A stretch of 64,000 bases of DNA from Anaerolineae bacterium (GCA_013178015.1 JABLXR010000030.1:51238-115237), one strand, 5' to 3'; positions 7,522-23,979 are shown, counted from the stretch's first letter. Numbers and translations are program-made. Notes: generated by a model not told the origin, from the letters alone.

Positions 7522-8952
7522 ATGAGCAAGGAAGGAAAGGTCTCGCGGCGTTCGTTCGTCCTCGGAGGGTCTAGGCTCGTGGGTGCCGCAGGCGCAATGG
7601 CGGCGCTCTCCGCCTGTGCCGCTACGCCGCAGGTGGTGGAGAAGGTAGTCAAGGAGACCGTGGAGGTCGAGAAGGTCGTCAAGGAAACGGTGGTGGTCGA
7701 GGCCACAACAGCCCCGCGATCGGCTGTAGTCCAGATTCTCATGCCGGAGTTTGGCGAGTACTACGATCAGATCCTGGTGGATACGAGCGACTGGTTCAGG
7801 GAGGATCACCCCGAGGTGACTTTCGAATGGTCATTCGCGCAGCAACACCAGGAGAAGCTGCTGACTCAGATCGCCAGCGGGTTGGCACCCGACATAACGT
7901 ACGTCAACTACATCAACGGTGTCAGCATAGCGTACCGCGGCGTGCTGCTGCCCATGGACGAGTGGTTTGCCGCCGCAGGGCTCAGCACCGATGACTTCCT
8001 CTATGGTGTGATGCACTCCTACATCTGGCGGGGCAGGGCCTATGCTATGCCCATCACTTACGATGCCATGGGCTTCTACTGGAACAAAAATGTCTATGAA
8101 GAGGTAGGGCTGGATCCAGAGCAGCCACCCAGGACCATCGCTGAGCTTGAGGCGCACTCCGACAAGATTCTCTTGAAGGACGACGCTGGCAACATCCAGC
8201 GAATCGGCTACAGCCCCAGCTCGAGCACTTTCGTTCTGTTCGCCTTCATGCGGGGCGGGCAGTTCTACGACGCGGAGAACGACCTCGTCACTGCCGATGA
8301 TCCGCCCAATGTCGAGGACCTGGAGTGGGAGGTAGCTCAAGTCGAGAAGCTGGACGTGGATCGGATGAGTTCGTTCTGGTCGGCAGCTCCTGGCTACTCA
8401 TCTCCAGGGAACCCCTTCACCGTGAATACCCAGGGCCTGGTCTATGGCGGTTGGTGGAACGCTGACTTCTACGAGAAGGTAGAGGGGCTCCGGTATGGGT
8501 TCACCAATGTGCCTTCGCTCACAGGAGATCCCGCAGAGCAGGAGAAGCTGTTCCAGCCATCCTGGGCCGTGGCGGTGCCGCAAGGGGCCAAGGAGCCAGA
8601 ATGGGCCTGGCGGTACATCAAGTACTTCACCGTCGACAACGGGGTGGAGTGCGGCCTGCACGCCGAGCAGTCGTGCTGCTACCTCCCCATCGTGGAGGAG
8701 TGGATAGACCGCTGGGTCGAGGAGAAGATGGCGGGCCAGATCAAGGAGTATGGCAAGGAGTTCTTCACCAATGCCATGCTCTCGGCGCGCTGGTGGCCGG
8801 CCATGCCTGTGGCGGCTATGTACAACACCGAGGTCTCGCGCGCCTACGACTTCGCTATCCACGGCCAGGGGACACCGGCGGAGGTATTGGCCAAGACGAG
8901 GGAGACGGTGCAGGCAGAGCTCGACGGCGTGTTGGCGGCGCTGGGCGGCTAG
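7522..8952 (+). CDS. ABC transporter extracellular solute-binding protein (carbohydrate/CUT1-like) with Tat-type signal
   Basis: AGGAGGG Shine-Dalgarno before ATG 7522. RRSFVLGGS twin-arginine signal. Duplicated lipobox-proximal linker (VVEKVVKETVEVEKVVKETVVVE). Family-1 SBP features. First gene of a long + strand cluster. Confidence 0.85.
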   Translation: MSKEGKVSRRSFVLGGSRLVGAAGAMAALSACAATPQVVEKVVKETVEVEKVVKETVVVEATTAPRSAVVQILMPEFGEYYDQILVDTSDWFREDHPEVTFEWSFAQQHQEKLLTQIASGLAPDITYVNYINGVSIAYRGVLLPMDEWFAAAGLSTDDFLYGVMHSYIWRGRAYAMPITYDAMGFYWNKNVYEEVGLDPEQPPRTIAELEAHSDKILLKDDAGNIQRIGYSPSSSTFVLFAFMRGGQFYDAENDLVTADDPPNVEDLEWEVAQVEKLDVDRMSSFWSAAPGYSSPGNPFTVNTQGLVYGGWWNADFYEKVEGLRYGFTNVPSLTGDPAEQEKLFQPSWAVAVPQGAKEPEWAWRYIKYFTVDNGVECGLHAEQSCCYLPIVEEWIDRWVEEKMAGQIKEYGKEFFTNAMLSARWWPAMPVAAMYNTEVSRAYDFAIHGQGTPAEVLAKTRETVQAELDGVLAALGG

Positions 8953-9180
8953 AGCCCAGGCCAGCGCGCCAGTGTCGTTCCAAGAACGGGTAACCATGCC
9001 TGACCCAGAGCCACTCCAACGGCGGGGATGGGTCCCGCCTTACAGAGAGAAGCCGCTTCACTCTGCTGGCGGACCCCCGTCCAGCAGAGCAGCCGACAGG
9101 CGACCGCCGCTACGGTAGCAGGGCCGTCCCCGGAGGATTGGTCCGATCCTCTGGGGACGGCGGGACCTGAGGAGATAGCC

Positions 9181-10551
9181 TTGACGAGCCAGGATTGGGA
9201 CAGCGAGGAACTCAAGCGAGACGCTCTCCGATACATCCTGCCCAACTTTGCCGACAACGTGGAACTGGGCAAAGAACGTCCCTACATCTTTGTCCGGGGC
9301 GAAGGCTGCTACGTCTACGACATAGACGGCAACCGGTATCTGGACACCTTTGCTTCGCTCCTAACGACCATATCGGGCCACAACCGGCCCGAGGTGGCTC
9401 GAGCGGTGCAGGAGCAAATGAGCCAGCTGGAGTTCTTCCCCAACTACGTTGACGGGTTCACGGTTCCGGCGATCAGGTTGGCCAAGAAGCTGGCGGAGAT
9501 AGCGCCGGGGGACCTCTCGGTGACGTTCTTCGTCAACGACGGATCGGAGGCGTGCGAGACGGCCATCAAGTTGGCCAAGCAGTACTTCTGGGAGAAAGGT
9601 GAGCGGAGCCGGTACAAGATCGTGGCCCGGCGCTACTGCTACCATGGCGCGACCTATGGGGGGCTTTCGGCCACCGGGCTGCCCTGGTTCCGGGAGCCCT
9701 TCCACCCACTCACGCCAGGCTTCGTCCACGTGATGCCCCCATACTGCTATCGCTGCGAGCTGGGTCTGGAGCCTTCTTCCTGCGGCATCGCCTGTCTGCG
9801 TCAAACCGAGGAGGTCATCCGCTGGGAGGGCCCCAAGTCGGTGGCGGCGGTGATAGTAGACCCCATCGCGGGATCGAACACAGGCTATCCGGTACCGCCC
9901 GACGGCTACTTGCAGGGTCTGCGCGAGTTGTGCGACCGGTACGGCATTCTGCTCATCTTCGACGAGGTCCAGACGGGGTTCGGCAAGACGGGGAGAATGT
10001 TCGGCTGCGAGCATTGGGGTGTCGCTCCTGACATCATGGCCATTGCCAAGGGGTTCTCGGGTGGCTACCTTCCCCTGGGGGCGACCCTACTCACTCCTAG
10101 GATAGCAGAGGCTTTCAGCAAGCCGGGCTCAGAATTCAGGCACGGGCACACCTATGCCGGGCACCCCACGGCCTGCGCTGCTGCCCTGGCGAACATCGAG
10201 ATCATCGAGCGAGAAGACCTGGTGGCGCGCGCCGCTCGGATGGGCGATTACCTGAGAAGCCGGCTGGAAGACCTCTACCGCTATCCGGTGGTGGGAGACG
10301 TGCGGGGCATTGGGTTGCTGCTGGCAGTCGAACTGGTGGCCGACAGGGTGAAGAGGACCCCGATCGAGCCCTCAATGGCAGTGGGCAGCTGGATCCGGAA
10401 CCGCTGCTACGAGTTGGGTATCATCCTGCGCAACAACGGCGATATCCTGGTACTGGCACCATCGCTCATCCTTACCAAGGAGCAAGCGGACGAGACGGTG
10501 GATACACTGCACCGGGTGATTCCTGAGGCGATTGATAGGTTCGGGCTGTGA
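9181..10551 (+). CDS. Class-III pyridoxal-phosphate aminotransferase (omega-transaminase family)
   Basis: Conserved DEVQTGFGKTGRMFGCEHWGVAPDIMAIAKGFSGGYLPLGA (PLP-Lys region) and YHGATYGG motifs. Probable TTG start at 9181 (GAGGAG upstream); the ORF is open from 9028. Confidence 0.85.
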   Translation: MTSQDWDSEELKRDALRYILPNFADNVELGKERPYIFVRGEGCYVYDIDGNRYLDTFASLLTTISGHNRPEVARAVQEQMSQLEFFPNYVDGFTVPAIRLAKKLAEIAPGDLSVTFFVNDGSEACETAIKLAKQYFWEKGERSRYKIVARRYCYHGATYGGLSATGLPWFREPFHPLTPGFVHVMPPYCYRCELGLEPSSCGIACLRQTEEVIRWEGPKSVAAVIVDPIAGSNTGYPVPPDGYLQGLRELCDRYGILLIFDEVQTGFGKTGRMFGCEHWGVAPDIMAIAKGFSGGYLPLGATLLTPRIAEAFSKPGSEFRHGHTYAGHPTACAAALANIEIIEREDLVARAARMGDYLRSRLEDLYRYPVVGDVRGIGLLLAVELVADRVKRTPIEPSMAVGSWIRNRCYELGIILRNNGDILVLAPSLILTKEQADETVDTLHRVIPEAIDRFGL

Positions 10552-10674: not shown

Positions 10675-11625
10675 ATGACCACGTTAGGTGACAGGGCCGT
10701 CCTCGGCGGCAAGAGGATGGGCATTGTGCGCTTGAGCCCCAGGGTAAGACGGAAACTGCGGAACGGCCTTCTGTTTACGTCTCCATGGCTCCTTGGCACG
10801 CTCATATTCACCATATACCCCATTGTGGCTTCTCTGTACTACAGCTTCACCGACTACAGCGTTCTCGCGTCCGGCCGGTGGGTTGGTCTCCTGAACTACC
10901 GAGTCATGTTCTTGCGAGACGAACGCTTCTACACTGCGCTCAAGAACACCCTCGTCTATGCTTGCCTTCTCGTGCCCATGAGTCTGACCCTGGGCATCAG
11001 CATCGCGGCCCTTCTGAATCTCAAGCTGAGGGGCATGGGGATATACCGCGCTGCCATCTACCTGCCCACGGTCATCCCGGCCGTAGCGGCCTCCATCGTG
11101 TGGCTGTGGCTCCTGGATCCTCAGTACGGGGTGGCGAACGACATTCTGCGGCGCCTGGGGGCACCGACGATTGGATGGCTGAGCGACCCAAAGTGGGCCA
11201 AACCCTCCCTGGTGCTTATCAGCACGTGGGGGCTGGGGACCACCGTCATCATCTATCTCGCAGGGCTCCAAGATGTACCGGTGTCGCTCTATGAGGCCGC
11301 CGAACTGGACGGTGCTGGCGTGCTGCGGCGATTCCGGCACGTGACCCTGCCCATGCTCAGCCCGACCATCTTCTTCAACTTGGTGATGACGCTCATAGGC
11401 GCGTTTGGCTACTTCACCACTGTGTTCGTGCTCACTCGAGGGCAGGGAGGGCCAGTGGACTCCACGCTGGTCTACTCCCTTCTGCTCTATAACAACGCCT
11501 TCGTCTACTACAAGATGGGCTACGCTTCCGCCATGGCCTGGATTCTCTTCATCATGGTGTCACTGGTCACCTACCTGGTGTTCAGAAGCTCCGGTCGGTG
11601 GGTGTACTACGGGGGTGGCGGGTGA
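10675..11625 (+). CDS. ABC transporter permease (MalF/UgpA-like, binding-protein-dependent inner membrane component)
   Basis: Six TM helices and the EAA loop EAAELDGAGVLRRFRHVTLPMLSP. Adjacent to a second permease. Confidence 0.85.
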   Translation: MTTLGDRAVLGGKRMGIVRLSPRVRRKLRNGLLFTSPWLLGTLIFTIYPIVASLYYSFTDYSVLASGRWVGLLNYRVMFLRDERFYTALKNTLVYACLLVPMSLTLGISIAALLNLKLRGMGIYRAAIYLPTVIPAVAASIVWLWLLDPQYGVANDILRRLGAPTIGWLSDPKWAKPSLVLISTWGLGTTVIIYLAGLQDVPVSLYEAAELDGAGVLRRFRHVTLPMLSPTIFFNLVMTLIGAFGYFTTVFVLTRGQGGPVDSTLVYSLLLYNNAFVYYKMGYASAMAWILFIMVSLVTYLVFRSSGRWVYYGGGG

Positions 11626-12524
11626 GTACCGAACAACTGCGCTCGGCGGAGCAGACGTCATACCTGAAGGTCACCCTGGGCTGGAAGGCGCGGCGGCGGG
11701 CTCGGAGGGCTCTGGAAGCCGTGTTCGGGTATCTGCTTCTCACGCTGGTGGCCGCGGCGTTCCTCGTGCCGTTCGTGCGCATGGCAACTACGTCTCTCAT
11801 GCCTGTGGAGCAGATCCTGGAAGTGCCCCTGACCTGGGTGCCCCGGCGCTACATCTGGTCAAACTACCCCGCTGCACTGATCTACTTCCCCTTCTTTCTC
11901 TTTCTGCGCAACACCATGATCATCTGTGTCTTCACCGTGGTGGCCACGGTGGCGTCGTGTGCCCTGGTGGCCTACGGCTTCTCTCGAATCAGCTGGCCCG
12001 GACGCAACCTGGTGTTCGCCATTCTGATTGCCACCATGATGATCCCATACCATGTCACTCTGATCCCGACCTTCTTGATCTACAAGTGGCTGCGATGGCT
12101 GGACACCCTGAAGCCCCTGACGATCCCTGCTCTCACCGGCAGTGCCTTCTACATCTTCCTCCTCCGCCAGTTCTTCATGACTATCCCCAATGATCTGTCA
12201 GAGATGGCGGAGATGGACGGCGCGGGTGACTTCCGGGTCTTCTGGAACATGATCCTGCCCCTCTCCAAACCGGCGCTGTCTGCGGTGGCGGTGTTCACCT
12301 TCCTGGGAAGCTGGAATGACTTCCTCTGGCCCCTGCTGGTGCTGAACAGCGAGGACAAGTACACGCTGTCGCTGGGGCTCTATCGCTACATCGGTCGCTA
12401 CAGCGCCCAGTGGGGCCTGCTCATGGCTGCCTGCACCATGGTCACCGTGCCGGTGATCGTGCTGTTCTTCGTGGCCCAAAGGTATTTCGTTCAGGGCATC
12501 ACGCTGACCGGCATCAAGGGGTAG
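11622..12524 (+). CDS. ABC transporter permease (MalG/UgpE-like)
   Basis: EAA loop EMAEMDGAGDFRVFWNMILPLSKPAL. GTG start overlaps the upstream stop (GTGA). TM-rich. Confidence 0.85.
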   Translation: MSTEQLRSAEQTSYLKVTLGWKARRRARRALEAVFGYLLLTLVAAAFLVPFVRMATTSLMPVEQILEVPLTWVPRRYIWSNYPAALIYFPFFLFLRNTMIICVFTVVATVASCALVAYGFSRISWPGRNLVFAILIATMMIPYHVTLIPTFLIYKWLRWLDTLKPLTIPALTGSAFYIFLLRQFFMTIPNDLSEMAEMDGAGDFRVFWNMILPLSKPALSAVAVFTFLGSWNDFLWPLLVLNSEDKYTLSLGLYRYIGRYSAQWGLLMAACTMVTVPVIVLFFVAQRYFVQGITLTGIKG

Positions 12525-12674
12525 CCACATAGCCACGGAAGACGCAGAGACTCAGCGCAAAGGAGCCGTGACTCGCCGGAGGGAGGGGGCCCGAGGAATC
12601 AGGGGACGGACAGTGTACCGTGGTCTGCCCCTCTTTGCTGCCTCCCTCTATGGCTCATTCCCCAGGAGGTGGCA

Positions 12675-13463
12675 ATGGCGTCCGTAAGCATGAAAGACGT
12701 AGGTTGGGTATGGGAAGGCCAGGGCATGGACCCGGGCGTCCCTCCCTCGGTGTTCGGCGTGGGCGAAGGAGCGGAGTTCTTCGGTCTGCGCCGGGCGATC
12801 TACATCTTCCACCCCAACGACGACCTCGGGCTGGGGAAACTCAGCCACCTGGACGAAGTCGCGTGCGACATCTCCAAGTGGAAGTTCGAAGAGACGAGTC
12901 GGGGAAGCTGGAAGAACTACATCGACTCCAGACCAGACGTGGTCCGGGCCGAGGCCGAGAACCTGAGCCGGCTGTCCCTCAAGTATCGCAACGTCACCGG
13001 CGGCTTCCACGACGATATGTGGGGCCTGGTCAAGCGAGAGGGCTACACCCCGCAGCAGTACGCGGACATCCACGCCGCCCTGCGCAGCGCCAACCCCGAC
13101 CTCAAGCTGTGGGTGGTGGTCTACACCCACGAGCTAGATCCGGCCAACTGGCAGCCCTTCCTTCCCTACATAGATGTCGTCAACCTGTGGGTGTGGAACG
13201 CGAAGGAGCTGCCGGGCTTGGAGGATGCCGTCAGGCGGTGCCGGGCGATCTTCCCGGGCAGGCCTCTGAACGTGGGCTGCTACCTGCGCGACTACCCCAC
13301 GGCTGCGCCCGTGCCTATGGACCTGCTCAAGCTGCAGTGGGAGTACGTCCGTCGCGGCCTCGATGGGGGCGAGATAGACGGCTTTTCCATCCTCGCGACG
13401 GTGCTGATAGACGGGCAGCAGGAGCAGGCCGAGTGGGTGCGCAGATTCATCGCTGCGCACTAG
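12675..13463 (+). CDS. Hypothetical protein (possible TIM-barrel glycosidase-like fold, unassigned)
   Basis: AGGAGGTGG Shine-Dalgarno before the ATG at 12675 (the ORF is open from GTG 12669). Alternating hydrophobic strand motifs (VVVYTHELDP, IDVVNLWVW, NVGCYL) suggest a beta/alpha barrel. No confident family assignment. Confidence 0.55.
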   Translation: MASVSMKDVGWVWEGQGMDPGVPPSVFGVGEGAEFFGLRRAIYIFHPNDDLGLGKLSHLDEVACDISKWKFEETSRGSWKNYIDSRPDVVRAEAENLSRLSLKYRNVTGGFHDDMWGLVKREGYTPQQYADIHAALRSANPDLKLWVVVYTHELDPANWQPFLPYIDVVNLWVWNAKELPGLEDAVRRCRAIFPGRPLNVGCYLRDYPTAAPVPMDLLKLQWEYVRRGLDGGEIDGFSILATVLIDGQQEQAEWVRRFIAAH

Positions 13464-13541
13464 GCACCCGGTGCTGCGGCGACCTAGGCGTGCTGTGTCC
13501 CCCTGCACAGGAGCGGCGTATCCGGCCACAGGAGGCGTGTT

Positions 13542-14738
13542 GTGACTAGACTGAAGATCGCTGTCGTGGGCGCTGGAGTGGGGAGAGCGCAGAGTTGGAT
13601 GTCCACGCTGCGGAAGCTGTCCCAGCTTAGCGACCTCTACCAGTTCACGGCCTTGTGTGAGGCCATCCCGAAGCGGGCCAGGGAGAACGCCGAGCGCTGG
13701 GGGGTGAAAGGCTTCACCAACCTGCTGGCGATGCTGGACGAGGCGAAGCCCGACGTAGTCCTCAATTGCGCCCCCTCGGACAGCAACTCGATGGTGCTCG
13801 GCCTCTGTGCCCCGCGAGGGGTGAACCTGATCACCGAGATACCCATCGCGCCCACGCTTGGCATCGGTGACTGGATGATGGCCATGGCGAAGGAGCACGG
13901 CATCAAGCTCGAGATCACCGAGCAGGTCTACCTGTGGGCCCGGGAGCAGCTGAAGCGCAAGATACTCGACTCCGGAATCATCGGCGAGATCACGCACGCC
14001 CGGCTCTGGTACGTGAACAAGGCGGACTACCATGGGCTCAATGGCGTGCGTATGCTGATCGGCAGCGAGGCCAGGCGGGTGTTGGGCTATACCGGCAGGG
14101 CTCCGGTGCCCCACTTCGTCGGCTACGAGGGCGACCTGGTGACCGAGGATGCCTGGGACGCGGCCATCATTGAGTTCGACAGCGGAGTCGTCTGTCTCTT
14201 CGAAGACCCGCCCAGGGGGCGGCTTACCGCCCGCTGGGACATCGAGGGGAGTGAAGGCCAGATAGTGGGCAGCGACCTCTACATCGGTCCTCTGGAGGGT
14301 GCGTCTCAGCACTACCCGTTCCGACACGAGTACACTGAAGCCAACGGCACCAGGATTCTTGACCATGTGCGCGTGGACACCTCTCCGCCCATCGTGTTCG
14401 AGAATCCATACAAGGAGTACCAGGCAGCCGATGACGACGAAGTGGCACGCATGCAGCTTCTGGTCGGCTTCCACCGGGCGGTCACCGAAGATACCGAGCC
14501 CGAGTACGGGCCGCAGAACGCGCGCAAGGATCTAGAGCTGCTGTTCGCTCTGCGGGAGAGCGCGCGCCTCGGCAACGCTTGGGTCGAGCTGCCGCTGCGC
14601 GGACCGACGGAACTGGAGAAGCGGCTCGAAGAGGAGTTCCTTCGCCTGTACGGTCACTCGCCATTCGACGCCCAGGCGCTGGCCGGCGTGCGCATCCCCC
14701 GCGGTGGAGTGCGTTGGCGCGTGGCCGGTTGGGACTAG
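13542..14738 (+). CDS. Gfo/Idh/MocA-family NAD(P)-dependent oxidoreductase
   Basis: N-terminal Rossmann motif KIAVVGAGVGRAQ. Family-typical length and a C-terminal alpha/beta domain. GTG start with CAGGAGG Shine-Dalgarno. Confidence 0.85.
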   Translation: MTRLKIAVVGAGVGRAQSWMSTLRKLSQLSDLYQFTALCEAIPKRARENAERWGVKGFTNLLAMLDEAKPDVVLNCAPSDSNSMVLGLCAPRGVNLITEIPIAPTLGIGDWMMAMAKEHGIKLEITEQVYLWAREQLKRKILDSGIIGEITHARLWYVNKADYHGLNGVRMLIGSEARRVLGYTGRAPVPHFVGYEGDLVTEDAWDAAIIEFDSGVVCLFEDPPRGRLTARWDIEGSEGQIVGSDLYIGPLEGASQHYPFRHEYTEANGTRILDHVRVDTSPPIVFENPYKEYQAADDDEVARMQLLVGFHRAVTEDTEPEYGPQNARKDLELLFALRESARLGNAWVELPLRGPTELEKRLEEEFLRLYGHSPFDAQALAGVRIPRGGVRWRVAGWD

Positions 14739-14766
14739 CCAACCACTCACTACGTAGGAGGGCATT

Positions 14767-17572: not shown

Positions 17573-19060
17573 ATGGGAGAAGTGCCTGACGAGGTGTACG
17601 AGCTACTGGCGATGACCGGCTCCAGAGCGACGGGGGCCTTCTGTGTCCTGGACCAGTCTGACGTGGACCGCCTGGCAGAGGCGGCGCTCACCATTCTCGA
17701 CCGGCTGGGCATGACCTGTCAGAGCCCCACTCTGCTCAAGGCTCTGGAAAGCTGGGGGGCGCGGGTGGATCTGGCGGCTCAGCAGGTCACCTTCCCCCGC
17801 TCCCTGGTAGAGGATTTCGTCCGTAGGACGCGAGCAGAGGCTCAACCCGACAATGCCGCCCCGGCGTTCTTCCGGGCGCCGCCCATGCCCTGGACCTTCC
17901 ATCCCCTGGCGGTCTACTTCTATGACGACGCCGGGCAGCAGAAGCGGGCTGGCAATCGAGATGACTTCATAGCCATGACCAAACTCGGCGACGTCCTGCA
18001 CCCCGAGCGCGGCGTGGGCCATTCCCTGCTGCTCTCCGACGTTCCCTCCGAGGTGGAGCCGCTCGAGGCAGCCCTCCTGCTGTGCGAGTGGGGGCACCGG
18101 CCGCGCGGGGTCTACGTCCAGGATGTGCGCCAGATCCCCTACCTGCAGGAGATGGAGGACATCGCCGGCATCAGCGACCCATACTGGCACTGGATGGCGA
18201 ACGTGAGCTTCTCCACCCCCTTGCGGCTGGGGCGCGACATCGCCGAACGGTTCGTGCGCATGGTGAGAAGCGGGCACTACCCGGCCCAGGTCTACAACTT
18301 CGCTGTCAGCGGGGTCAATATGCCGGCCACCGTGGCTGGGTGTGCTGCTCTGGCCGGGGCAGAGCTGCTTGCCCTGTGGATGGCGGCCCGAGCGCTGAGC
18401 CCGGATATCTCTCTGGAGGGAGGGCTGGCCTGGATCGCCACGGCGGACATGCGCACCGGGGACATCAGCTACTCCGGATACGACGCCACCATACGCAGCC
18501 TGGCCACCTGTGAGTTCCTCCGTCGCTGGACGGGCGTGACCGTCTCGCCGGGCGGCGGTGAGTACAACCCTTCCAGCATTCCCGGTACCTACACCGCTCT
18601 GGAGAAGGCGTACCGGGCCATGACCGTGGCTGCCTTCACCGGCGTGCACCCGGCGGTGGGGCTGGGGCACGTCGAGGCCGGACTCAGCCTGAGCCCCGTC
18701 CAACTCCTGCTGGACCGCGAGGTCACTGCCGGACTGGGCCTGCTAGAGCATCCGCCGGTGGACGAGGACACCTTGGGTCTGGACACCATCCTCTCGGTGG
18801 GCCATGGCGAGCACGGCACCTATCTGGAGACGGAACACACCCTGCGTCACTTCCGCTCCGCTCTGTGGCAGCCACGCCTCTTCGACCGGGGCGGGTGGGC
18901 TGGCATCGAGTCGGAGCAGGCAGTGCTGGCTCGGGCCCAGGATCGCGTCCGGGAACTGCTCGCCGAATATCGGAAGCCCGAGTTCGACCCGGACCGCTTG
19001 GAGAAGATGCGGGCTGTGGTGGCCCGGGCACGGCGCGAGATGCAGGGGGATCGTGGATAG
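17573..19060 (+). CDS. MttB-superfamily methyltransferase (trimethylamine methyltransferase family, non-pyrrolysine member)
   Basis: Length (~495 aa) and N-terminal pattern (LSDSDVDRLAEAALTILDRLGM...LLKALESWGA) match the MttB/MtgB family. The ORF is continuous with no in-frame amber codon. A paralog lies at 58313-59722 (alignable throughout). Confidence 0.8.
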   Translation: MGEVPDEVYELLAMTGSRATGAFCVLDQSDVDRLAEAALTILDRLGMTCQSPTLLKALESWGARVDLAAQQVTFPRSLVEDFVRRTRAEAQPDNAAPAFFRAPPMPWTFHPLAVYFYDDAGQQKRAGNRDDFIAMTKLGDVLHPERGVGHSLLLSDVPSEVEPLEAALLLCEWGHRPRGVYVQDVRQIPYLQEMEDIAGISDPYWHWMANVSFSTPLRLGRDIAERFVRMVRSGHYPAQVYNFAVSGVNMPATVAGCAALAGAELLALWMAARALSPDISLEGGLAWIATADMRTGDISYSGYDATIRSLATCEFLRRWTGVTVSPGGGEYNPSSIPGTYTALEKAYRAMTVAAFTGVHPAVGLGHVEAGLSLSPVQLLLDREVTAGLGLLEHPPVDEDTLGLDTILSVGHGEHGTYLETEHTLRHFRSALWQPRLFDRGGWAGIESEQAVLARAQDRVRELLAEYRKPEFDPDRLEKMRAVVARARREMQGDRG

Positions 19061-19152: not shown

Positions 19153-20136
19153 GTGGGCATGAGCGATGATGGCGCACGACTGGTTGGCATGTTGCGCACG
19201 ATGTACCGCATTCGCTTCTTCGAGGAGCGGGTGAAGGAGCTGTTCGGGCAGAACCTAATCTGGGGCGGAGTGCACCTTTACATCGGCCAGGAGGCGGTGG
19301 CTACGGGTGCGTGCGCCGCCCTGCGCCGCGATGATTACCTGGTGAGCACGCACCGAGGTCATGGCCACTGCCTGGCCAAAGGGGGTGACATCCGACGCAC
19401 TATGGCCGAGCTCATGGGGCGAGACACCGGCTATTGCAGGGGCCGCGGCGGCTCCATGCACCTCTTCGACCCAGAGATCGGACTGCTGGGCGGCAACGGC
19501 ATCGTGGGCGCGGGACTTCCCATTGCTCTAGGGGCCGCCCTCTCCGCCCAGTACCGAGGCAGTGACCAGGTCTGTGCATGCTTCTTCAGCGACGGGGCGT
19601 CCAATCAGGGCACCTTCCACGAGTCGCTCAACCTGGCTGCGCTGTGGAAGCTGCCTTTGGTATACATCTGCGAGAACAACCTCTATGCCGCCACCACCCC
19701 GGCCTCCAAGACGCTGCCCTTGCCGGACATCTACGTCCGGGCAGCCGCTTACGGGATCCCCGGAGTGTCAGTGGACGGCAACGACGTAGAAGCGGTGTAC
19801 CAGGCGGTCAGCCAAGCGGTGACGCGGGCCCGGGGTGGGGAGGGGCCATCACTGGTGGAGTGCAAGACCTACCGCATCGAGGGGCACTGCATGGTGCTGG
19901 ATTGCCACCGCGATCCCGAGGAGCTGGCAGCCTGGAAGGAAAGGGATCCCATCCGAATGTTCGAGGGCCGTCTGCTGGAGATGGGCGTCATAGCCACTGA
20001 TGACATCGCTGAGCTGCGCTCGCAGGCGGAGGCAGACGTCCGGGAGGCAGTCGAGTACGCCCAGGCCAGTCCCTTCCCTTCGGCGGATGACCTGGGATTG
20101 GCGGATCTTCCTGCCGCCGTGGTCGCCGGGTTCTAG
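19153..20136 (+). CDS. Thiamine-diphosphate-dependent 2-oxoacid/acetoin dehydrogenase E1 component, alpha subunit
   Basis: TPP-binding region GGNGIVGAGLPIALGAALSAQYRG...CFFSDGASNQGTFHESLNLAALWKLPLVYICENNLYA. The phospho-loop-like YRIEGH is present. Confidence 0.9.
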   Translation: MGMSDDGARLVGMLRTMYRIRFFEERVKELFGQNLIWGGVHLYIGQEAVATGACAALRRDDYLVSTHRGHGHCLAKGGDIRRTMAELMGRDTGYCRGRGGSMHLFDPEIGLLGGNGIVGAGLPIALGAALSAQYRGSDQVCACFFSDGASNQGTFHESLNLAALWKLPLVYICENNLYAATTPASKTLPLPDIYVRAAAYGIPGVSVDGNDVEAVYQAVSQAVTRARGGEGPSLVECKTYRIEGHCMVLDCHRDPEELAAWKERDPIRMFEGRLLEMGVIATDDIAELRSQAEADVREAVEYAQASPFPSADDLGLADLPAAVVAGF

Positions 20137-20192
20137 CGGCCTGGTGCCTAGCTGGGGCCGGATACTTCGCTCATGGATAGAGGTGTGACCAA

Positions 20193-21170
20193 GTGCGCGA
20201 GTTGATGTACGTCCAGGCTCTCAATGAGGCTCTCGTCGAGGAGATGGGGCGTGACGCCTCGGTGTTTCTCATAGGAGAGGACATCGGCTACTCCGGCGGA
20301 GGTGTCTTCCGGGTCACCACCGGGCTGGCGGACAGGTTTGGCGACGGGCGAGTCAGGGAGACGCCCATATCGGAGTCGGCCATCATTGGCACGGCCGTGG
20401 GGGCCGCAGCAACCGGCCTCAGGCCCGTAGCCGAGATCATGTATATGGACTTCATTACCTGCGGCATGGACCAGGTGGCGAACCAGGCTGCCAAGATTAG
20501 CTTCATGTCCGGGGGACAGGTGAGGCTACCGCTGGTGATCAGAACACCCTCGGGGATGGGAACGCGGGAGGCGGCCCAGCACAGCCAGAGCCTCGAGGCC
20601 TGGTTCGTGCACACTCCTGGCCTGAAGGTGGTCATGCCGGCGACGGTGTATGACGCCAAGGGGCTGCTCAAGTCTAGCATCCGCGACGATGGCCCGGTGC
20701 TCTTCATCGAGAACCGTATGCTTTACTATGAGAAGGAGAGCGTGCCGGAGGGCGAGTGGGTGGTGCCGCTGGGCCAGGCTGCCATCAGGCGGGAGGGCGA
20801 TCAGCTCACCGTCGTGGCCACCGCCTACGCTCTGCACAAGGCTCTGAAGGCGGCGGAGATGGTGGCGGGCGAAGTCAGCGTAGAGGTCATAGATCCCCGC
20901 ACTCTAGTGCCCCTGGACATGGAAGCCATCACCCGCTCTCTAGAGAAGACGGGTCGCCTGCTGGTGGTACACGAAGCCCCCGTTCGGGGAGGCTTTGGGG
21001 CTGAGGTGGTGCGCCGGGCGATGGAGAGCGCGTTCGAGTACCTGGACTGCGCTCCCCGGGTGCTGGGTGGCGCCGCCACGCCCATGCCCTACAGCCCGCC
21101 GCTGGAGGATGCCTGCGTGCCGCAGGTGGAGGACATCGTGGCGGCCATGCGGGCCATGGTTGGCAGGTAG
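20193..21170 (+). CDS. 2-oxoacid/acetoin dehydrogenase E1 component, beta subunit (transketolase-like)
   Basis: FLIGEDIGYSGGGVFRVTTGLADRFG...RVRETPISESAIIGTAVGAAATGLRP is typical of E1 beta. It follows E1 alpha after a 56-nt gap. No E2 or E3 in the window. Confidence 0.9.
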   Translation: MRELMYVQALNEALVEEMGRDASVFLIGEDIGYSGGGVFRVTTGLADRFGDGRVRETPISESAIIGTAVGAAATGLRPVAEIMYMDFITCGMDQVANQAAKISFMSGGQVRLPLVIRTPSGMGTREAAQHSQSLEAWFVHTPGLKVVMPATVYDAKGLLKSSIRDDGPVLFIENRMLYYEKESVPEGEWVVPLGQAAIRREGDQLTVVATAYALHKALKAAEMVAGEVSVEVIDPRTLVPLDMEAITRSLEKTGRLLVVHEAPVRGGFGAEVVRRAMESAFEYLDCAPRVLGGAATPMPYSPPLEDACVPQVEDIVAAMRAMVGR

Positions 21171-21257
21171 TGGTTAGGGGGTGGCGGCTAGTTTGGTGGA
21201 AGACGCCGCTCGCTCTCCACTGCTCATCAACCGCTATCCACTCCTCAGGAGGGTTAC

Positions 21258-22334
21258 GTGACGCCACGAGAGAGGTTGCTGGCCGCCATCAACCGCAGGA
21301 AGCCGGACAGGCTGCCGAAGGCCATATCGTTCACCGAGCCAGCGCTGAGGGTATTCCGGGAGAAGACCGGGGCGACCGATCCTCAGGAGTACTTCGGGGT
21401 GGAGACCAGGTGGGTGAGCTTCGGCCCAACTAAGGTCAAGACAGACTGGACGCGGTTCCTGCCTGATCTGCCTGAGGGCGCCGAGTTCAGCGAGTGGGGG
21501 GTCGGATACCTCAAACGTCCCGACACCCACTACTTCCGATACGCGGGGCCCATGCGCAGCTTCACCACAGTGGAGCAGATCCGCTCCTATCCCTATCCGG
21601 ACATCACCGCCGACTACCGCCATGCCGACCTGGAAGAACGGGTGGCAGCCCTGCAGGACCGGGGCTACGCCGTGGCCGGAAGCGTGACCCCCGAGGGTGG
21701 TGCCTTCTTCGAGGCCGCCTGGGTACTACGCGACTTGGATCAGCTTCTGGTTGATTTCGCCGCCAACCCCGAGATGGCCGACGCGTTGCTGGACGAGGTG
21801 TCGGAGCGCAGCGCCTTCATGTCCCGGCGGTTTGCCGAAGCCGGCGTGGACCTCATCTACACTGGTGACGACGTCGGCACGGAGCGGGCCATGCTCATCA
21901 GCCCGGCCACCTGGCGCCGGTTCATCAAGCCCCGGTTCGCCCGGGTCATCGCGGCGGCGCGGGAGGTGCGGCCCGACATCCCCGTGTTCTACCACTGCGA
22001 CGGCTACTGCGAGCCCATCATCCCGGAGCTGATCGAGATCGGGGTGACCATCCTCAACCCGGTGCAGCCGGAGTGCATGGACCCCATCAAGCTCAAGCGG
22101 CGGTACGGCGACCAACTGGCGTTCTGGGGCACCATCGGCACCCAGACTACCATGCCTTTCGGCACCCCCGATGAGGTGCGGGCGGCGGTGAAGCGCATGT
22201 TCGAGACGGTGGGCGAGGGAGGGGGGTTGGTCATCGCCCCCACGCAGGTGATCGAGCCCGACGTCCCGTGGGAGAACATCGTCGCCTTCGCCGAAGCCGT
22301 GGCGGAGTGCGTTTATACGGTCGCTGACGCTTAG
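21258..22334 (+). CDS. Uroporphyrinogen-decarboxylase (URO-D) family protein, MtaA/CmuA-like methyltransferase-type
   Basis: N-terminal ERLLAAINRRKPDRLP and overall URO-D-like length (~358 aa). The genomic context (MttB-family neighbour) fits the methylcobamide-type methyltransferase subfamily rather than HemE. GTG start with AGGAGGG Shine-Dalgarno. Confidence 0.7.
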   Translation: MTPRERLLAAINRRKPDRLPKAISFTEPALRVFREKTGATDPQEYFGVETRWVSFGPTKVKTDWTRFLPDLPEGAEFSEWGVGYLKRPDTHYFRYAGPMRSFTTVEQIRSYPYPDITADYRHADLEERVAALQDRGYAVAGSVTPEGGAFFEAAWVLRDLDQLLVDFAANPEMADALLDEVSERSAFMSRRFAEAGVDLIYTGDDVGTERAMLISPATWRRFIKPRFARVIAAAREVRPDIPVFYHCDGYCEPIIPELIEIGVTILNPVQPECMDPIKLKRRYGDQLAFWGTIGTQTTMPFGTPDEVRAAVKRMFETVGEGGGLVIAPTQVIEPDVPWENIVAFAEAVAECVYTVADA

Positions 22335-22341
22335 GCCAGGT

Positions 22342-23979
22342 GTGAGACCCCTGCCGTTCTTCGACATCAATGGAGCTATCGGCGAGCCTGTGTACTCCGC
22401 CGCCACCGGGCAGTTCGCCGGCTACCGCAGCGCCTCCGACTTGTTGGCGGAGATGGACCGCTGTGGGGTAGAGCGGTCGCTGGTCTGCCACTGGGAGGCG
22501 CTCAAGGTGCACCCCGCCTCGGGCAACGCACGCCTCATCGAGGAGGCGGGCGGGCACGAGCGACTCTTACCTTGCTGGGTGGTGCTGCCCCACTACACCG
22601 GCGAGATGTCCCGGCCGGCGGACCTGCTGAGCCGCATGCGCACCCTCGGCGTGAGGGCGGTGCGGCTGGTGCCGCACCTGTTCGGCTTCAGCCTGGACGA
22701 CTGGTGTTCGGGAGAGCTCCTCGCCGTCTTGGAGAAGGAGCACATCCTCACCATAGTGGAGGCGACGCCGGCCGAACTGGCATTCTTGTGCGAACGATTC
22801 CCTCGTCTGCCGCTGGCGGGCACGGACACCAACCTGCGCCAGATGTACCCCCTGCTGGCTCGATACTCCAACCTCTACCTGAGCCTCGAGGGCGCCTCTC
22901 ACCCGGAGATGGTGGAGGATGTGTGCCGGCGCTTCGGGCCCGGGCGTCTGCTCTTCGGTAGCCAGCGTCAAGCGCCCGTGTTTCCCACTGGAGACGTGGT
23001 GTATGAGCCGGGGGCATGGCGCTTGGGGCCTTCGTTGGCCACGGTGGCGTACGCCCGGGTATCCCGGAAGGCAAAGGAAGCCCTCGCCGGCAATACCCTG
23101 GCGACGCTCCTGGGGCTGCCCGCGGGTCGAGGCATGGCGCCCCAGGGCGAGGGAGAGATCATCGCTGCCGGGGCTGCTGGAGTCCCGGTGCCGGCCCGGG
23201 TGCTTGACGCCCACTTCCACCTGGGGCCGTGGGCCTACGGCCACCAGCCGGGAACTGACGTTGACGCCGCCCTGGCCATGATGGACGCAGCCGGGGTAGA
23301 GGTGGCCTGCGTCAGTTCAGCGTCGGCCGTGCAGGGCGGCGATCACTACCGCGGAAACCGGGAAGTGGCCCTGGTGTGCCGGGACCATCCCGACCGGTTC
23401 GTGGGCTTCGGCGTCATCAACCCGCATTTCCCGGACACCAGGGACGAGATTCGACGCTGCACAGAGCTCTACGGCTTCCGGGGACTGAAAGTGCACCCGC
23501 GCACTCACCAATGCAGCCTGGCCGATCCGAAGTACGTGCCTGTGTGGGAGGCGGCGGAGGACCCGGGGGTGCTGGTGCAGGCCCACACCGGCGAGCGCCA
23601 GACCGGCGCCAGCCCGAGGGCCTTCGAGGAGATCGCCAGCCGCTACCCTCGAGGCGTCTTTCACTTGGTACACTCCGGGGACAACCTGGAAGGGCTGCGC
23701 GTGTGTCTCGACCTCGCTTCCAAGCACCCGAACCTGTATCTCGGCACGTCGGACGTAGCCTTCATGTATGAGGGCATGCTGGAACACGCCGTTCGGCGAC
23801 TGGGAGCTGACCGCATAGTGTTCGAGTCCGACTGTGCCACCATTGGCCTCAATCACTCCCTCGGGATCGTGCTGTTCTCGGCTCTGAGCGACCGCGACAA
23901 GGCTCTAATCCTCGGCGGCAACCTGGCCCGACTTCTTGGTCGCGGATGCCCGGACGCGCCGGCGGGCCGGAGCGCATAG
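22342..23979 (+). CDS. Tandem-duplicated amidohydrolase-2 (PF04909-like TIM-barrel metal-dependent hydrolase) fusion protein
   Basis: The second half carries the HxH metal motif (VLDAHFHLGP) and ...VHPRTHQ...QAHTGE. The first half is alignable to the second (CHWEALKVHPASG / RGLKVHPRTH). Total 545 aa, about twice the single-domain size. Confidence 0.7.
   Translation: MRPLPFFDINGAIGEPVYSAATGQFAGYRSASDLLAEMDRCGVERSLVCHWEALKVHPASGNARLIEEAGGHERLLPCWVVLPHYTGEMSRPADLLSRMRTLGVRAVRLVPHLFGFSLDDWCSGELLAVLEKEHILTIVEATPAELAFLCERFPRLPLAGTDTNLRQMYPLLARYSNLYLSLEGASHPEMVEDVCRRFGPGRLLFGSQRQAPVFPTGDVVYEPGAWRLGPSLATVAYARVSRKAKEALAGNTLATLLGLPAGRGMAPQGEGEIIAAGAAGVPVPARVLDAHFHLGPWAYGHQPGTDVDAALAMMDAAGVEVACVSSASAVQGGDHYRGNREVALVCRDHPDRFVGFGVINPHFPDTRDEIRRCTELYGFRGLKVHPRTHQCSLADPKYVPVWEAAEDPGVLVQAHTGERQTGASPRAFEEIASRYPRGVFHLVHSGDNLEGLRVCLDLASKHPNLYLGTSDVAFMYEGMLEHAVRRLGADRIVFESDCATIGLNHSLGIVLFSALSDRDKALILGGNLARLLGRGCPDAPAGRSA

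What the first reader, a model, noticed from the sequence alone, without database searches (positions are those of the whole stretch)
7522..23979. Sixteen-kilobase co-directional cluster coupling a sugar-type ABC importer to an aminotransferase, an MttB-family methyltransferase, an orphan E1 alpha/beta pair, a URO-D-like protein and a double amidohydrolase
Twelve + strand genes are spaced by 0-120 nt, several with overlapping stop/start codons. The order is: solute-binding protein, class-III omega-aminotransferase, two permeases, an unknown barrel-like protein, a Gfo/Idh/MocA oxidoreductase, a 921-aa LamG/putative glycosidase, a non-Pyl MttB homolog, TPP-dependent E1 alpha and E1 beta without any E2/E3, a URO-D-family (MtaA/CmuA-like) protein, and a tandem amidohydrolase-2 fusion.

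Characterised non-Pyl MttB homologs (MtgB, MtpB, MtcB) demethylate quaternary amines, but they use a cognate corrinoid protein and a pterin-type methyltransferase. Here no B12-binding protein is nearby. Instead a URO-D-type methyltransferase-like protein and an acetoin/2-oxoacid-type E1 pair follow.

An aminotransferase embedded inside a CUT1-type transporter operon, together with a Gfo/Idh/MocA enzyme, suggests uptake and oxidation/transamination of an aminated or N-methylated glycoside or cyclitol. The whole arrangement does not match any pathway I know. It is the strongest candidate in this window for an undescribed catabolic system, possibly for a methylated amino-sugar or quaternary-amine glycoside.
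Basis: partly seen in the sequence, partly recalled or inferred. Interest (0 to 1): 0.8.

Follow-up and report, generated by a model that had tools for sequence, protein, structure and literature searches.

The report
Sugar-amine operon with orphan MttB-like enzyme
A real, conserved 12-gene sugar-uptake and breakdown operon whose "trimethylamine methyltransferase-like" gene belongs to a widespread branch that never sits next to a vitamin-B12 carrier protein. It sits instead beside aminotransferases and sugar enzymes, so it probably does undescribed chemistry on amine-bearing sugars rather than methyl transfer.

Summary
The cluster exists as described: twelve co-directional genes at 7522-23979, and every domain call holds. 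One correction: gene 5 was read in the wrong frame. The real gene is 12669/12675-13463 and encodes a 262-aa glycosidase-like TIM barrel with no Pfam family.

The whole gene order recurs in two Anaerolineae MAGs. Its core recurs across at least five phyla: MttB-like, class-III aminotransferase, E1 alpha/beta, URO-D-like, Gfo/Idh/MocA and Amidohydro_2.

The MttB homolog has the MttB fold but forms a deep, separate clade:
- it scores only 73 bits to MtgB;
- it has no pyrrolysine codon;
- the Arg conserved in all characterised quaternary-amine methyltransferases aligns with Ser, and the cation-pi Phe aligns with an invariant Gly.

No corrinoid protein was detected within about 10 kb in the window or the 57 related MttB-clade loci censused, and the few loci scanned have no cobalamin riboswitch. 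The URO-D-like protein is neither HemE nor an MtaA-type zinc-thiol enzyme.

Neighbours are glycosidase-like proteins, sulfatases, oxidoreductases, TPP enzymes and several aminotransferase classes.

Best reading: a catabolic operon for an imported amine-bearing glycoside, in which the MttB-like and URO-D-like barrels were recruited to corrinoid-independent sugar chemistry. The substrate is unknown. A corrinoid-dependent sugar demethylase remains the main rival (about 0.2).

The parts
7522..8952 (+). Lipoprotein solute-binding protein of a CUT1-type sugar ABC importer
   Evidence: PF01547 at 72 bits. RRSF motif plus LSAC lipobox after the Met at 7522. Best solved relative is 4r9f 'MBP1' at 93 bits. 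From memory, 4r9f is a manno-oligosaccharide-binding protein.
9028..10551 (+). Class-III (omega) aminotransferase; the true start is probably about 50 codons downstream
   Evidence: PF00202 at 356 bits. It stays below every NCBIfam equivalog cut-off. Best PDB match is 6io1 at 371 bits, among pyruvate-type omega-transaminases. Homologs lie within 2.5 kb on the same strand as the MttB-clade gene in 10 of 57 loci.
10675..11625 (+). ABC permease 1
   Evidence: PF00528. Conserved in L002 and L003.
11598..12524 (+). ABC permease 2
   Evidence: PF00528.
12669..13463 (+). 262-264-aa cytoplasmic TIM barrel of a family with no Pfam model ('c4'), glycoside-hydrolase clan A-like.
13542..14738 (+). Gfo/Idh/MocA NAD(P)-dependent sugar oxidoreductase
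   Evidence: PF01408 plus a weak C-terminal domain match. Only weak similarity to WbpB/WlbA-type and DgpA-type 3-dehydrogenases. The family is present in 20 of 57 related loci.
14767..17532 (+). 921-aa cytoplasmic glycosidase-like protein (GH123_N beta-sandwich, LamG, GHL-type barrel)
   Evidence: Pfam. No signal peptide. No relative in the PDB by sequence. Conserved in L002 and L003.
17573..19060 (+). MttB-superfamily TIM barrel of a deep, non-pyrrolysine clade without a corrinoid partner
   Evidence: PF06253 at 150 bits. TIGR02369 scores 122 bits against a cut-off of 525. Scores 73 bits to MtgB and 60 bits to MttB. AlphaFold2 pLDDT 90; Foldseek TM 0.72 to 2qne, 9yce and 7xcl. MtgB R312, H348 and F356 align with S325, G363 and G370.
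19153..20136 (+). TPP-dependent E1 alpha subunit (pyruvate-dehydrogenase type)
   Evidence: PF00676 at 280 bits. TIGR03182 scores 371 bits against a cut-off of 394. Human PDH E1 alpha scores 226 bits. Linked to the MttB clade in 9 of 57 loci.
20193..21170 (+). E1 beta subunit
   Evidence: PF02779 plus PF02780. PRK09212 scores 354 bits against a cut-off of 321. Linked in 10 of 57 loci.
21258..22334 (+). URO-D-family TIM barrel; neither HemE nor an MtaA-type zinc enzyme
   Evidence: PF01208 at 91 bits, residues 156-350 only. MtaA/CmuA model scores 71 bits against a cut-off of 235. MtaA 4ay7 scores 41 bits; HemE scores 19 bits. The clade motifs are FYH-S-D-G and APTHV, and the window protein has HCDG and APTQV.
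22342..23979 (+). Double Amidohydro_2 protein. The N-terminal half is degenerate; the C-terminal half keeps the HxH metal motif.
   Evidence: PF04909 in two stretches. 'FFDINGA' in the N-terminal half versus 'DAHFH' in the C-terminal half. Only about 30 bits to LigW and gamma-resorcylate decarboxylases.

Best explanation
This is one operon of an Anaerolineae-type Chloroflexota bacterium for uptake and cytoplasmic breakdown of an amine-bearing oligosaccharide or glycoside.

Shown:
- There are twelve co-directional genes.
- The order is conserved in relatives, and the core is conserved across phyla.
- The domain identities hold.
- No corrinoid partner is present.

Inferred pathway:
1. The lipoprotein binding protein and two permeases import the substrate. 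The ATPase is encoded elsewhere.
2. Two cytoplasmic glycosidase-like barrels (the 921-aa protein and the 262-aa 'c4' protein) release an unusual monosaccharide.
3. The Gfo/Idh/MocA enzyme and the omega-transaminase interconvert hydroxyl, keto and amino groups on it.
4. The Amidohydro_2 protein acts as a lactonase, hydrolase or decarboxylase.
5. The PDH-type E1 alpha/beta pair performs a TPP-dependent decarboxylation or C-C cleavage of the resulting 2-oxo or acyloin intermediate.
6. The MttB-like and URO-D-like TIM barrels catalyse corrinoid-independent conversions of the sugar intermediate (isomerisation, dehydration, decarboxylation or similar) rather than methyl transfer.

The exact substrate and the reactions of the two barrels are not known.
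For: Operon and synteny:
- Short gaps and no intergenic terminator-like sites.
- The identical gene order occurs in the Anaerolineae MAGs L002 and L003 at about 65% MttB identity.

Core module in other phyla:
- Desantisbacteria L006.
- Ruminiclostridium L016.
- Verrucomicrobiota L023.
- Pirellulales L026.

HMM census of 57 loci:
- Gfo 20, URO-D 18, class-III aminotransferase 11 (10 of them within 2.5 kb on the same strand).
- E1 beta 10, E1 alpha 9, c4 8, Amidohydro_2 5.

Other neighbours:
- GH114, GH106, GH95, GH42, GH141-like and GHL10 proteins.
- BNR sialidase-like plus GDSL fusions.
- Sulfatases, including the N-sulfoglucosamine sulfohydrolase type.
- Xylose-isomerase-like barrels and 3-keto-disaccharide-hydrolase-like proteins.
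- PfkB, ROK and LacI proteins.
- DegT, class I/II and class IV aminotransferases.

No corrinoid signal:
- No B12-binding family appears in any Pfam list.
- The only two hits to the DxHxxG..SxL..GG motif in 866 kb are an aldo-keto reductase and a protein with no Pfam hit.
- No cobalamin riboswitch was found.

The two barrels:
- MttB-like: the quaternary-amine site residues are absent.
- URO-D-like: no His/Cys/Cys site. A 54%-identical homolog sits in a frl-like ROK/SIS/PfkB/GntR/ABC sugar-amine operon with no MttB.
- c4 is a clan GH-A-like barrel.
Against: - No protein of the cluster has a characterised close homolog, so every catalytic step is inferred from family-level knowledge.
- MttB-family and MtaA-like URO-D-family genes co-occur in 18 of 57 loci. 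These are exactly the pair expected for a corrinoid methyl-transfer system, and a corrinoid protein could be encoded elsewhere.
- The residue mapping rests on a phmmer alignment at about 21% identity, and MtgB Y97 could not be mapped.
- The E1 pair might simply borrow E2 and E3 from a housekeeping complex.
- Neighbour ORFs were called crudely in GC-rich DNA.
- Singleton Pfam families in the census were not all visible, because only the top 25 of 87 are shown.
Confidence: 0.5

Rival explanations
1. A corrinoid-dependent demethylase module for an O- or N-methylated (amino)sugar. The MttB-like protein would act as methyltransferase I and the URO-D-like protein as methyltransferase II. They would use free cobamide or a corrinoid protein and activase encoded elsewhere. 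The rest of the operon would catabolise the demethylated sugar.
For: - The two families are the MT1 and MT2 families of methylamine methyl transfer, and they co-occur in 18 of 57 loci.
- The URO-D-like protein matches MtaA/CmuA models and the MtaA structure better than HemE.
- The MttB fold is retained.
- From memory: many of the host lineages are anaerobic glycan degraders, and methylated sugars are common in algal and bacterial glycans.
Against: - No corrinoid protein, activase or cobalamin riboswitch was detected in the 64-kb window or within about 10 kb in the 57 related loci censused.
- From memory: characterised MT1 genes sit beside their corrinoid protein.
- MtgB R312, which is conserved in all characterised members, and F356 are not conserved here.
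- The MtaA zinc ligands are replaced: Asp for Cys, and Gln/His for Cys.
- A close URO-D-like homolog and c4 both occur without MttB.
- The tightest partner of the MttB clade is an aminotransferase, not URO-D.
Confidence: 0.2
2. A biosynthetic or modifying cluster. The E1 alpha/beta pair would add a two-carbon branch, and the Gfo plus aminotransferase pair would make an amino sugar (as WbpB/WbpE-type pairs do). The product would go to a glycolipid or exopolysaccharide built by the downstream GT4 and CDP-alcohol phosphatidyltransferase.
For: - The Gfo enzyme has weak similarity to WbpB/WlbA.
- GT4 and CDP-OH_P_transf genes lie downstream at 25328-27189.
- From memory: orphan E1 pairs are known from branched-sugar biosynthesis.
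Against: - The operon starts with a binding-protein-dependent importer and contains two glycosidase-like proteins.
- There are no nucleotidyltransferase or NDP-sugar enzymes in it.
- The GT4 region is separated by a 379-nt gap and an unrelated gene.
- The GT4 region is not part of the conserved gene order seen in the related loci, though L002 and L003 end before that point.
- Neighbours elsewhere are degradative: sulfatases, GH families and kinases.
Confidence: 0.07
3. A fortuitous juxtaposition of unrelated genes or operons that merely share a strand.
For: None beyond the heterogeneity of the enzyme families.
Against: - The same twelve-gene order occurs in L002 and L003.
- Core combinations recur in five or more phyla.
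- The aminotransferase adjacency in 10 of 57 loci is far above expectation. This is my own estimate: about 0.5% per locus for a family with about 10 copies in about 4000 genes.
Confidence: 0.03

Closest known systems
MtgB/MtgC/MtgA, and the MtcB, MtpB, MtyB and MthB quaternary-amine:corrinoid methyltransferase systems (non-Pyl MttB superfamily)
   Same: Same Pfam family (PF06253) and the same TIM-barrel fold: TM 0.72 and 21% identity to MtgB. No pyrrolysine codon.
   Different: - Only 73 bits to MtgB, and only the C-terminal half aligns by sequence.
- R312, F356 and H348 of the MtgB substrate site are not conserved.
- No adjacent corrinoid protein, pterin methyltransferase or activase.
- The genomic partners are aminotransferases and sugar enzymes.
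MttB/MttC/MtbA trimethylamine:CoM methyl-transfer system of methanogens
   Same: It pairs an MttB-family gene with a URO-D-family gene (MtbA and MtaA are URO-D family).
   Different: - No in-frame UAG.
- TIGR02369 scores 122 bits against a cut-off of 525.
- No MttC.
- The URO-D-like protein lacks the His/Cys/Cys zinc site and scores 71 bits against a cut-off of 235.
Gfo/Idh/MocA-initiated sugar pathways (all recalled from memory): inositol catabolism (IolG, IolE and TPP-dependent IolD), 3-keto-glycoside and C-glycoside pathways, and WbpB/WbpE oxidation-transamination pairs
   Same: - An NAD-dependent oxidation of a sugar hydroxyl is coupled to a transaminase, TIM-barrel enzymes and a TPP-dependent C-C cleaving enzyme.
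- Xylose-isomerase-like barrels, 3keto-disac_hyd and PfkB genes occur in related loci.
   Different: - The barrels here are MttB-like, URO-D-like and Amidohydro_2, not IolE- or DgpB-type.
- The TPP enzyme is a PDH-type E1 heterodimer, not IolD.
- Similarity of the Gfo enzyme to any characterised member is only 22-27 bits.
frl-type Amadori (fructosamine) utilisation operons
   Same: A homolog of the URO-D-like protein (54% identical) lies inside a ROK/SIS/PfkB/GntR/ABC operon of this type in Bacillota. The theme is again a sugar carrying an amine.
   Different: The window operon has no SIS deglycase or PfkB kinase. It has a transaminase and an E1 pair instead.

Membership tests
MttB superfamily (PF06253) | Pfam PF06253 match above the gathering score | tested here: met
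   150 bits against a cut-off of 25, covering residues 20-490.
MttB superfamily (PF06253) | MttB/MtgB TIM-barrel fold | tested here: met
   AlphaFold2 pLDDT 90. Foldseek TM 0.70-0.72 and E 1e-19 to 1e-22 to 2qne, 9yce, 7xcl and 4yyc; nothing else scores below 1e-3.
Trimethylamine methyltransferase MttB proper | In-frame UAG (pyrrolysine) and a score above the TIGR02369 equivalog cut-off | tested here: not met
   Uninterrupted 495-codon ORF. 122 bits against a cut-off of 525.
Quaternary-amine:corrinoid methyltransferases (MtgB, MtcB, MtpB, MtyB, MthB) | The Arg equivalent to MtgB R312 (conserved in all characterised members) and the aromatic cation-pi residue F356 | tested here: not met
   These align with S325 (a variable column in the clade) and G370 (invariant Gly in the clade); H348 aligns with G363 (alignment, clade alignment, residue roles from PMC13080624). 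The alignment is at about 21% identity.
Quaternary-amine:corrinoid methyltransferases (MtgB, MtcB, MtpB, MtyB, MthB) | The second cation-pi residue, MtgB Y97 | not testable with these tools
Corrinoid-dependent methyltransferase systems (MT1, corrinoid protein, MT2, activase) | A cognate B12-binding corrinoid protein (and usually a RamA-type activase) encoded next to MT1 | tested here: not met
   - None among the window ORFs scanned.
- None in the Pfam-annotated loci L002-L004 and L062-L067.
- None in the visible top-25 Pfam families of the census of 175 neighbours.
- The motif scan of 866 kb gave only two non-corrinoid hits.
- The rest of each genome could not be examined.
Corrinoid-dependent methyltransferase systems (MT1, corrinoid protein, MT2, activase) | Methylation of cob(I)alamin or a corrinoid protein by the MT1 | not testable with these tools
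   This needs an enzyme assay.
MtaA/MtbA/CmuA methylcobamide methyltransferases (URO-D family) | A score above the TIGR01463 / NF004889 cut-offs | tested here: not met
   71 bits against 235, and 66 bits against 244.
MtaA/MtbA/CmuA methylcobamide methyltransferases (URO-D family) | His-x-Cys...Cys zinc site that activates the thiol acceptor | tested here: not met
   The window protein has H-C-D-G, with Asp at the Cys position, and APTQV where MtaA has PGCG. The clade consensus is H-S-D-G and APTHV. The identity of the MtaA ligands is recalled from memory.
Uroporphyrinogen decarboxylase HemE | Full-length similarity to HemE | tested here: not met
   No HemE model appears among the NCBIfam hits. 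HemE 1j93 scores 18.8 bits. The Pfam match covers only residues 156-350.
2-oxoacid or acetoin dehydrogenase complex | E1 alpha and E1 beta subunits with the TPP motif | tested here: met
   PF00676 at 280 bits, plus PF02779 and PF02780. E1 beta passes PRK09212 (354 bits against 321). E1 alpha is just below TIGR03182 (371 bits against 394).
2-oxoacid or acetoin dehydrogenase complex | E2 (lipoyl acyltransferase) and E3 encoded alongside | tested here: not met
   Neither is found in the window or in L002, L003, L006, L023, L026 or L051 next to the E1 pair.
CUT1-type carbohydrate ABC importer | A family-1 solute-binding protein plus two BPD_transp_1 permeases | tested here: met
   The lipoprotein signal is seen. 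No ATPase gene lies in the operon; from memory, shared ATPases are common for this type.

The most novel reading that the evidence does not exclude
This clade of the MttB superfamily is not a methyltransferase at all. It would be a corrinoid-independent TIM-barrel enzyme that works with an aminotransferase, a Gfo/Idh/MocA oxidoreductase and a PDH-type E1 pair. Together they would form a previously undescribed catabolic route for an amine-bearing sugar, shared by Chloroflexota, Planctomycetota, Verrucomicrobiota, Armatimonadota, Lentisphaerota, Omnitrophota, some Bacillota and some archaea. Many 'mttB' calls used to infer methylotrophy in metagenome-assembled genomes would then be wrong.
Probability: 0.45. 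Interest if true: 0.8.

Novelty: new variant of a known kind. Interest (0 to 1): 0.62.

Why it matters
PF06253 hits are routinely read as trimethylamine or betaine methyltransferases when methylotrophy is inferred from metagenomes. In the Brockarchaeota study, mttB was called by PF06253, while corrinoid genes were reported only beside mtaB (PMC8065059). A Brockarchaeota locus (L044) carries this very clade beside two URO-D-like genes and a sugar kinase.

If the clade works on sugars without a corrinoid, three things follow:
1. Those metabolic inferences need revising.
2. The MttB and URO-D superfamilies each gain a new reaction type.
3. A widespread, uncharacterised route for amine-bearing glycans becomes testable in uncultured glycan degraders, with a defined 12-gene operon as the starting point. 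That operon includes a new 262-aa glycosidase-like family and an orphan E1 pair.

Tried and rejected
- Four literature searches found no description of such a cluster: MttB with aminotransferase and oxidoreductase; trimethylamine methyltransferase with URO-D, sulfatase and polysaccharide; Zipacnadia; and URO-D family with MocA and amidohydrolase. The Ace Lake paper describes a different MttB clade that does have MetH-module neighbours.
- Rfam at gathering thresholds on the window and five loci found nothing, including no cobalamin riboswitch.
- The classical B12-binding motif regex gave two hits. One is an aldo-keto reductase and the other has no Pfam match. The regex had no positive control.
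- PDB sequence searches gave no informative close relatives for the 921-aa protein, the Gfo enzyme or the double amidohydrolase.
- An exact-sequence lookup of the second MttB paralog found no record.
- I considered HemL/HemE-type tetrapyrrole genes (class-III aminotransferase plus URO-D) and rejected the idea. The aminotransferase groups with omega-transaminases and the URO-D-like protein is not HemE.
- I considered a primary pyruvate dehydrogenase and set it aside, because the E1 pair is syntenic with the MttB clade in several phyla and lacks E2 and E3.
- Greedy ORF calling in GC-rich loci sometimes picked antisense ORFs. The final census therefore used HMMs against all stop-to-stop ORFs.
- Substrate guesses could not be tested, so none is claimed. 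The candidates were galactosamine or glucosamine oligomers, inosamines, sialic-acid-like sugars and manno-oligosaccharides. The hints were GH114, SGSH-type sulfatases, BNR proteins, and the 4r9f and GH113 similarities.

Full report
**Observation.** The window is GC-rich at 62-70%.

In order they are:
- a family-1 solute-binding protein;
- a class-III aminotransferase;
- two ABC permeases;
- a small unknown protein;
- a Gfo/Idh/MocA oxidoreductase;
- a 921-aa GH123_N/LamG/GHL-like protein;
- an MttB-family protein;
- E1 alpha and E1 beta;
- a URO-D-family protein;
- a protein with two Amidohydro_2 stretches.

The binding protein most likely starts at 7522, where a twin-arginine-like RRSF motif and an LSAC lipobox follow the Met.

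One gene was mis-read. The 309-codon ORF at 12620-13549 gives an Arg/Pro/Gly-rich translation with no relatives. The overlapping frame at 12669/12675-13463 is 62-72% identical to proteins at the same position in three other loci.

Corrected gaps are 75, 123, -28, 144, 78, 28, 40, 92, 56, 87 and 7 nt, followed by a 379-nt gap. No terminator-like site lies between genes, and the count found is below the shuffled expectation.

Pfam scans of the rest of the window found no B12-binding protein, no RamA-like activase, no E2 and no E3. These scans covered the ORFs of at least 200 aa plus selected shorter ones.

**Origin and synteny.** The MttB gene and its neighbours are identical to a 10.6-kb Logan contig from SRR6186653.
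- The nearest MttB relatives (64-65% identity) are from Anaerolineae MAGs.
- In two of these MAGs the whole order is kept: binding protein, aminotransferase, two permeases, c4, Gfo, the 920-aa protein, MttB, E1 alpha, E1 beta and URO-D. They also carry an extra MttB paralog.
- Homologs of MttB (P0004), c4 (P0122) and URO-D (P0242) are each listed on a 22,005-bp JGI contig. This is probably another syntenic copy; I infer that only from the shared contig length.

**The MttB-like protein.**
- It passes PF06253 at 150 bits, but scores 122 bits against the 525-bit cut-off of the pyrrolysine MttB equivalog.
- It has no internal stop codon.
- Against solved structures it scores 73 bits to MtgB and 60 bits to MttB, and only residues 215-490 align.
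- Within its own clade it scores 440-780 bits across Anaerolineae, Omnitrophota, Planctomycetota, Latescibacteria, Armatimonadota, Lentisphaerae and Poribacteria.
- Among 1.84 billion cluster representatives, 2426 match at E<=1e-3 but only 87 at E<=1e-30. More than 150 representatives score above the MtgB level.
- An AlphaFold2 model (pLDDT 90) matches only MttB-superfamily structures, at TM about 0.72 and 17-21% identity.

A 2026 JBC study defines the MtgB glycine-betaine site (PMC13080624). Y97 and F356 make cation-pi contacts, and R312 and H348 bind the carboxylate. The study states that R312 is conserved in all characterised members.

I mapped these residues through the phmmer alignment, which is anchored by the shared GGG and TG motifs:
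- R312 aligns with S325, a variable column in the clade.
- H348 aligns with G363.
- F356 aligns with G370, an invariant Gly in the clade.
- Y97 could not be mapped.

The clade instead keeps its own invariant acidic and His residues: D118, E162, E193, E264, D304, E344 and H359.

**The URO-D-like protein.**
- Only residues 156-350 match PF01208.
- It scores 71 bits against the 235-bit cut-off of the MtaA/CmuA model. No HemE model is hit.
- MtaA (4ay7) gives 41 bits and HemE gives 19 bits.
- Where MtaA has LHICG and PGCG (its zinc ligands, from memory), the window protein has YHCDG and APTQV.
- In 31 homologs (50-84% identical) the consensus is FYHSDG, APTHV and an invariant NPVQPE. That suggests a His/Asp/His-type site at most.
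- URO-D-like neighbours of the MttB clade come from several subfamilies.
- A 54%-identical homolog lies in a Bacillota operon of ROK, SIS, PfkB, GntR and two sugar ABC systems, with no MttB. From memory, this is the layout of Amadori-compound (frl) operons.

**Other parts.**
- *921-aa protein.* It has no signal peptide and no solved relative by sequence.
- *Aminotransferase.* It groups with pyruvate-type omega-transaminases; the best match is 6io1 at 371 bits.
- *E1 pair.* It is of the pyruvate-dehydrogenase type.
- *Double amidohydrolase.* It keeps the HxH motif only in its C-terminal half, and is only remotely related to LigW-type decarboxylases.
- *Binding protein.* Its best solved relative is 4r9f at 93 bits.

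**Neighbourhood census.** A scan of one genome per species with the clade alignment returned 55 loci from more than ten phyla, all of them MAGs.

HMMs built from the recurring neighbours were searched against all stop-to-stop ORFs of the 57 MttB-clade loci then held:

| Family | Loci (of 57) |
|---|---|
| Gfo/Idh/MocA | 20 |
| URO-D | 18 |
| Class-III aminotransferase | 11 (10 within 2.5 kb, same strand) |
| E1 beta | 10 |
| E1 alpha | 9 |
| c4 | 8 |
| Amidohydro_2 | 5 |

The richest copies are these:
- Desantisbacteria (L006): URO-D, MttB, c4, unknown, E1 alpha, E1 beta, DUF6785/6784, URO-D, SDR, Amidohydro_2.
- Ruminiclostridium (L016).
- Verrucomicrobiota (L023): includes a sulfatase and an SDR.
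- Pirellulales (L026): includes ROK, two TPP pairs, two MttB genes and three Gfo genes.

Pfam counts over 175 first and second neighbours add further families:
- xylose-isomerase-like barrels, split transketolases, PfkB and LacI proteins;
- BNR, beta-helix, GH95, GH42 and FAD_oxidored proteins;
- sulfatases with the SGSH_C domain, ceramidase-like proteins and creatininase;
- DegT, class I/II and class IV aminotransferases.

Six further fully annotated loci show GH114, GH106, GHL10, GxGYxYP, LamG, 3keto-disac_hyd and URO-D. They also show a BNR+GDSL fusion ending 16 nt before MttB.

No B12-binding family appears in any of these lists:
- A regex for the classical DxHxxG..SxL..GG motif over 866 kb in six frames hit two ORFs. 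One is an aldo-keto reductase and the other has no Pfam match.
- No cobalamin riboswitch was found.

**Mechanism.** Co-directionality, conservation, domain content and the absence of a nearby corrinoid partner are shown. The pathway itself is inferred:
1. The substrate is imported by the lipoprotein-dependent ABC system.
2. The two glycosidase-like barrels hydrolyse it in the cytoplasm.
3. The Gfo enzyme and the omega-transaminase interconvert hydroxyl, keto and amino groups.
4. The Amidohydro_2 enzyme acts as a lactonase, hydrolase or decarboxylase.
5. The E1 pair performs a TPP-dependent decarboxylation or C-C cleavage.
6. The MttB-like and URO-D-like barrels act as corrinoid-independent sugar-converting enzymes.

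The recurring link to aminotransferases of four classes points to a sugar that carries an amine. So do the polygalactosaminidase-type GH114, the N-sulfoglucosamine-type sulfatases and the frl-like operon. I cannot name the sugar.

**Rivals.**
- *Corrinoid-dependent sugar demethylase (about 0.2).* It is kept alive by the MttB/URO-D family pairing and the retained fold. It is weakened by the missing corrinoid protein, the missing substrate-site residues and the missing zinc site.
- *Biosynthetic reading (about 0.07).* It conflicts with the importer, the glycosidase-like genes and the degradative neighbours.
- *Chance juxtaposition (about 0.03).* It is excluded by synteny.

**Novelty and limits.** I found no description of this arrangement.
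- The nearest published remark concerns a different MttB clade linked to MetH modules.
- MAG studies have read PF06253 hits as trimethylamine methyltransferases without an adjacent corrinoid gene. A Brockarchaeota locus (L044) carries this clade next to URO-D and PfkB genes.

I rate it a new variant of a known kind: a sugar catabolic operon built around unassigned branches of the MttB and URO-D superfamilies.

Limits:
- All related sequences come from MAGs.
- Neighbour ORF calling was crude.
- Only the top 25 Pfam families per census were visible.
- The residue mapping rests on a low-identity alignment.
- Genomes could not be searched beyond 10-kb flanks.
- No step has experimental support.

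Noticed in passing
window 58256-59722 (+): A second gene of the same MttB clade: 488 aa, Pfam MTTB at 156 bits, 49% identical to the cluster copy and 45% identical to the extra paralog P0007 of L003. It is isolated from the cluster. Its neighbours are an HD-domain protein (56075-56662, -), a PIN protein (60301-60849, +) and a GNAT-like protein (61277-62560, -). No corrinoid protein is nearby.
   Followed up: partly
window 12669-13463 (+); homologs P0121-P0240: The small barrel protein belongs to a strongly conserved family with no Pfam model: 394 homologs at 54-89% identity, from Verrucomicrobia to Theionarchaea. Its predicted fold resembles clan GH-A glycosidases. It evolves more slowly than the MttB gene beside it.
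   Followed up: yes
window 22342-23979 (+): The N-terminal Amidohydro_2 half has 'FFDINGA' where the C-terminal half has the metal-binding 'DAHFH'. The first half is therefore probably catalytically dead.
   Followed up: partly
L068-L070, 8001-9059: A URO-D-like protein 54% identical to the window one sits in a Bacillota operon with two ROK genes, two SIS genes, two PfkB genes, GntR, a class II aldolase and two sugar ABC systems. The layout is like Amadori-compound (frl) operons, and there is no MttB.
   Followed up: no
window 3887-5122 (+) and 5079-7283 (-): A receiver-domain protein and a hybrid histidine kinase lie just upstream of the operon. The kinase is transcribed divergently from the operon. 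They are possible regulators, but this was not tested.
   Followed up: no
window 24359-27189 (+): After a 379-nt gap come an acidic 317-aa protein with no Pfam match, a GT4 glycosyltransferase and a CDP-alcohol phosphatidyltransferase. This looks like a separate glycolipid-type biosynthetic unit.
   Followed up: no
L006 7661-9592: In the Desantisbacteria copy of the module a DUF6785+DUF6784 protein sits between E1 beta and URO-D, and no ABC-transporter genes were recognised in that locus. It may be an alternative transporter.
   Followed up: no
L064/L065 7712-9985 and L062 8907-9818: In an Armatimonadota-related locus a BNR sialidase-like plus GDSL esterase fusion ends 16 nt before the MttB-clade gene. 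In another locus a GH114 gene lies just upstream of the MttB-clade gene; from memory, GH114 is the polygalactosaminidase family.
   Followed up: no
window 44470-48596: An FrhB/FdhB-like iron-sulfur protein (44470-45651, -) and a CheB/CheR pair (46507-48596, +). They are unrelated to the finding.
   Followed up: no
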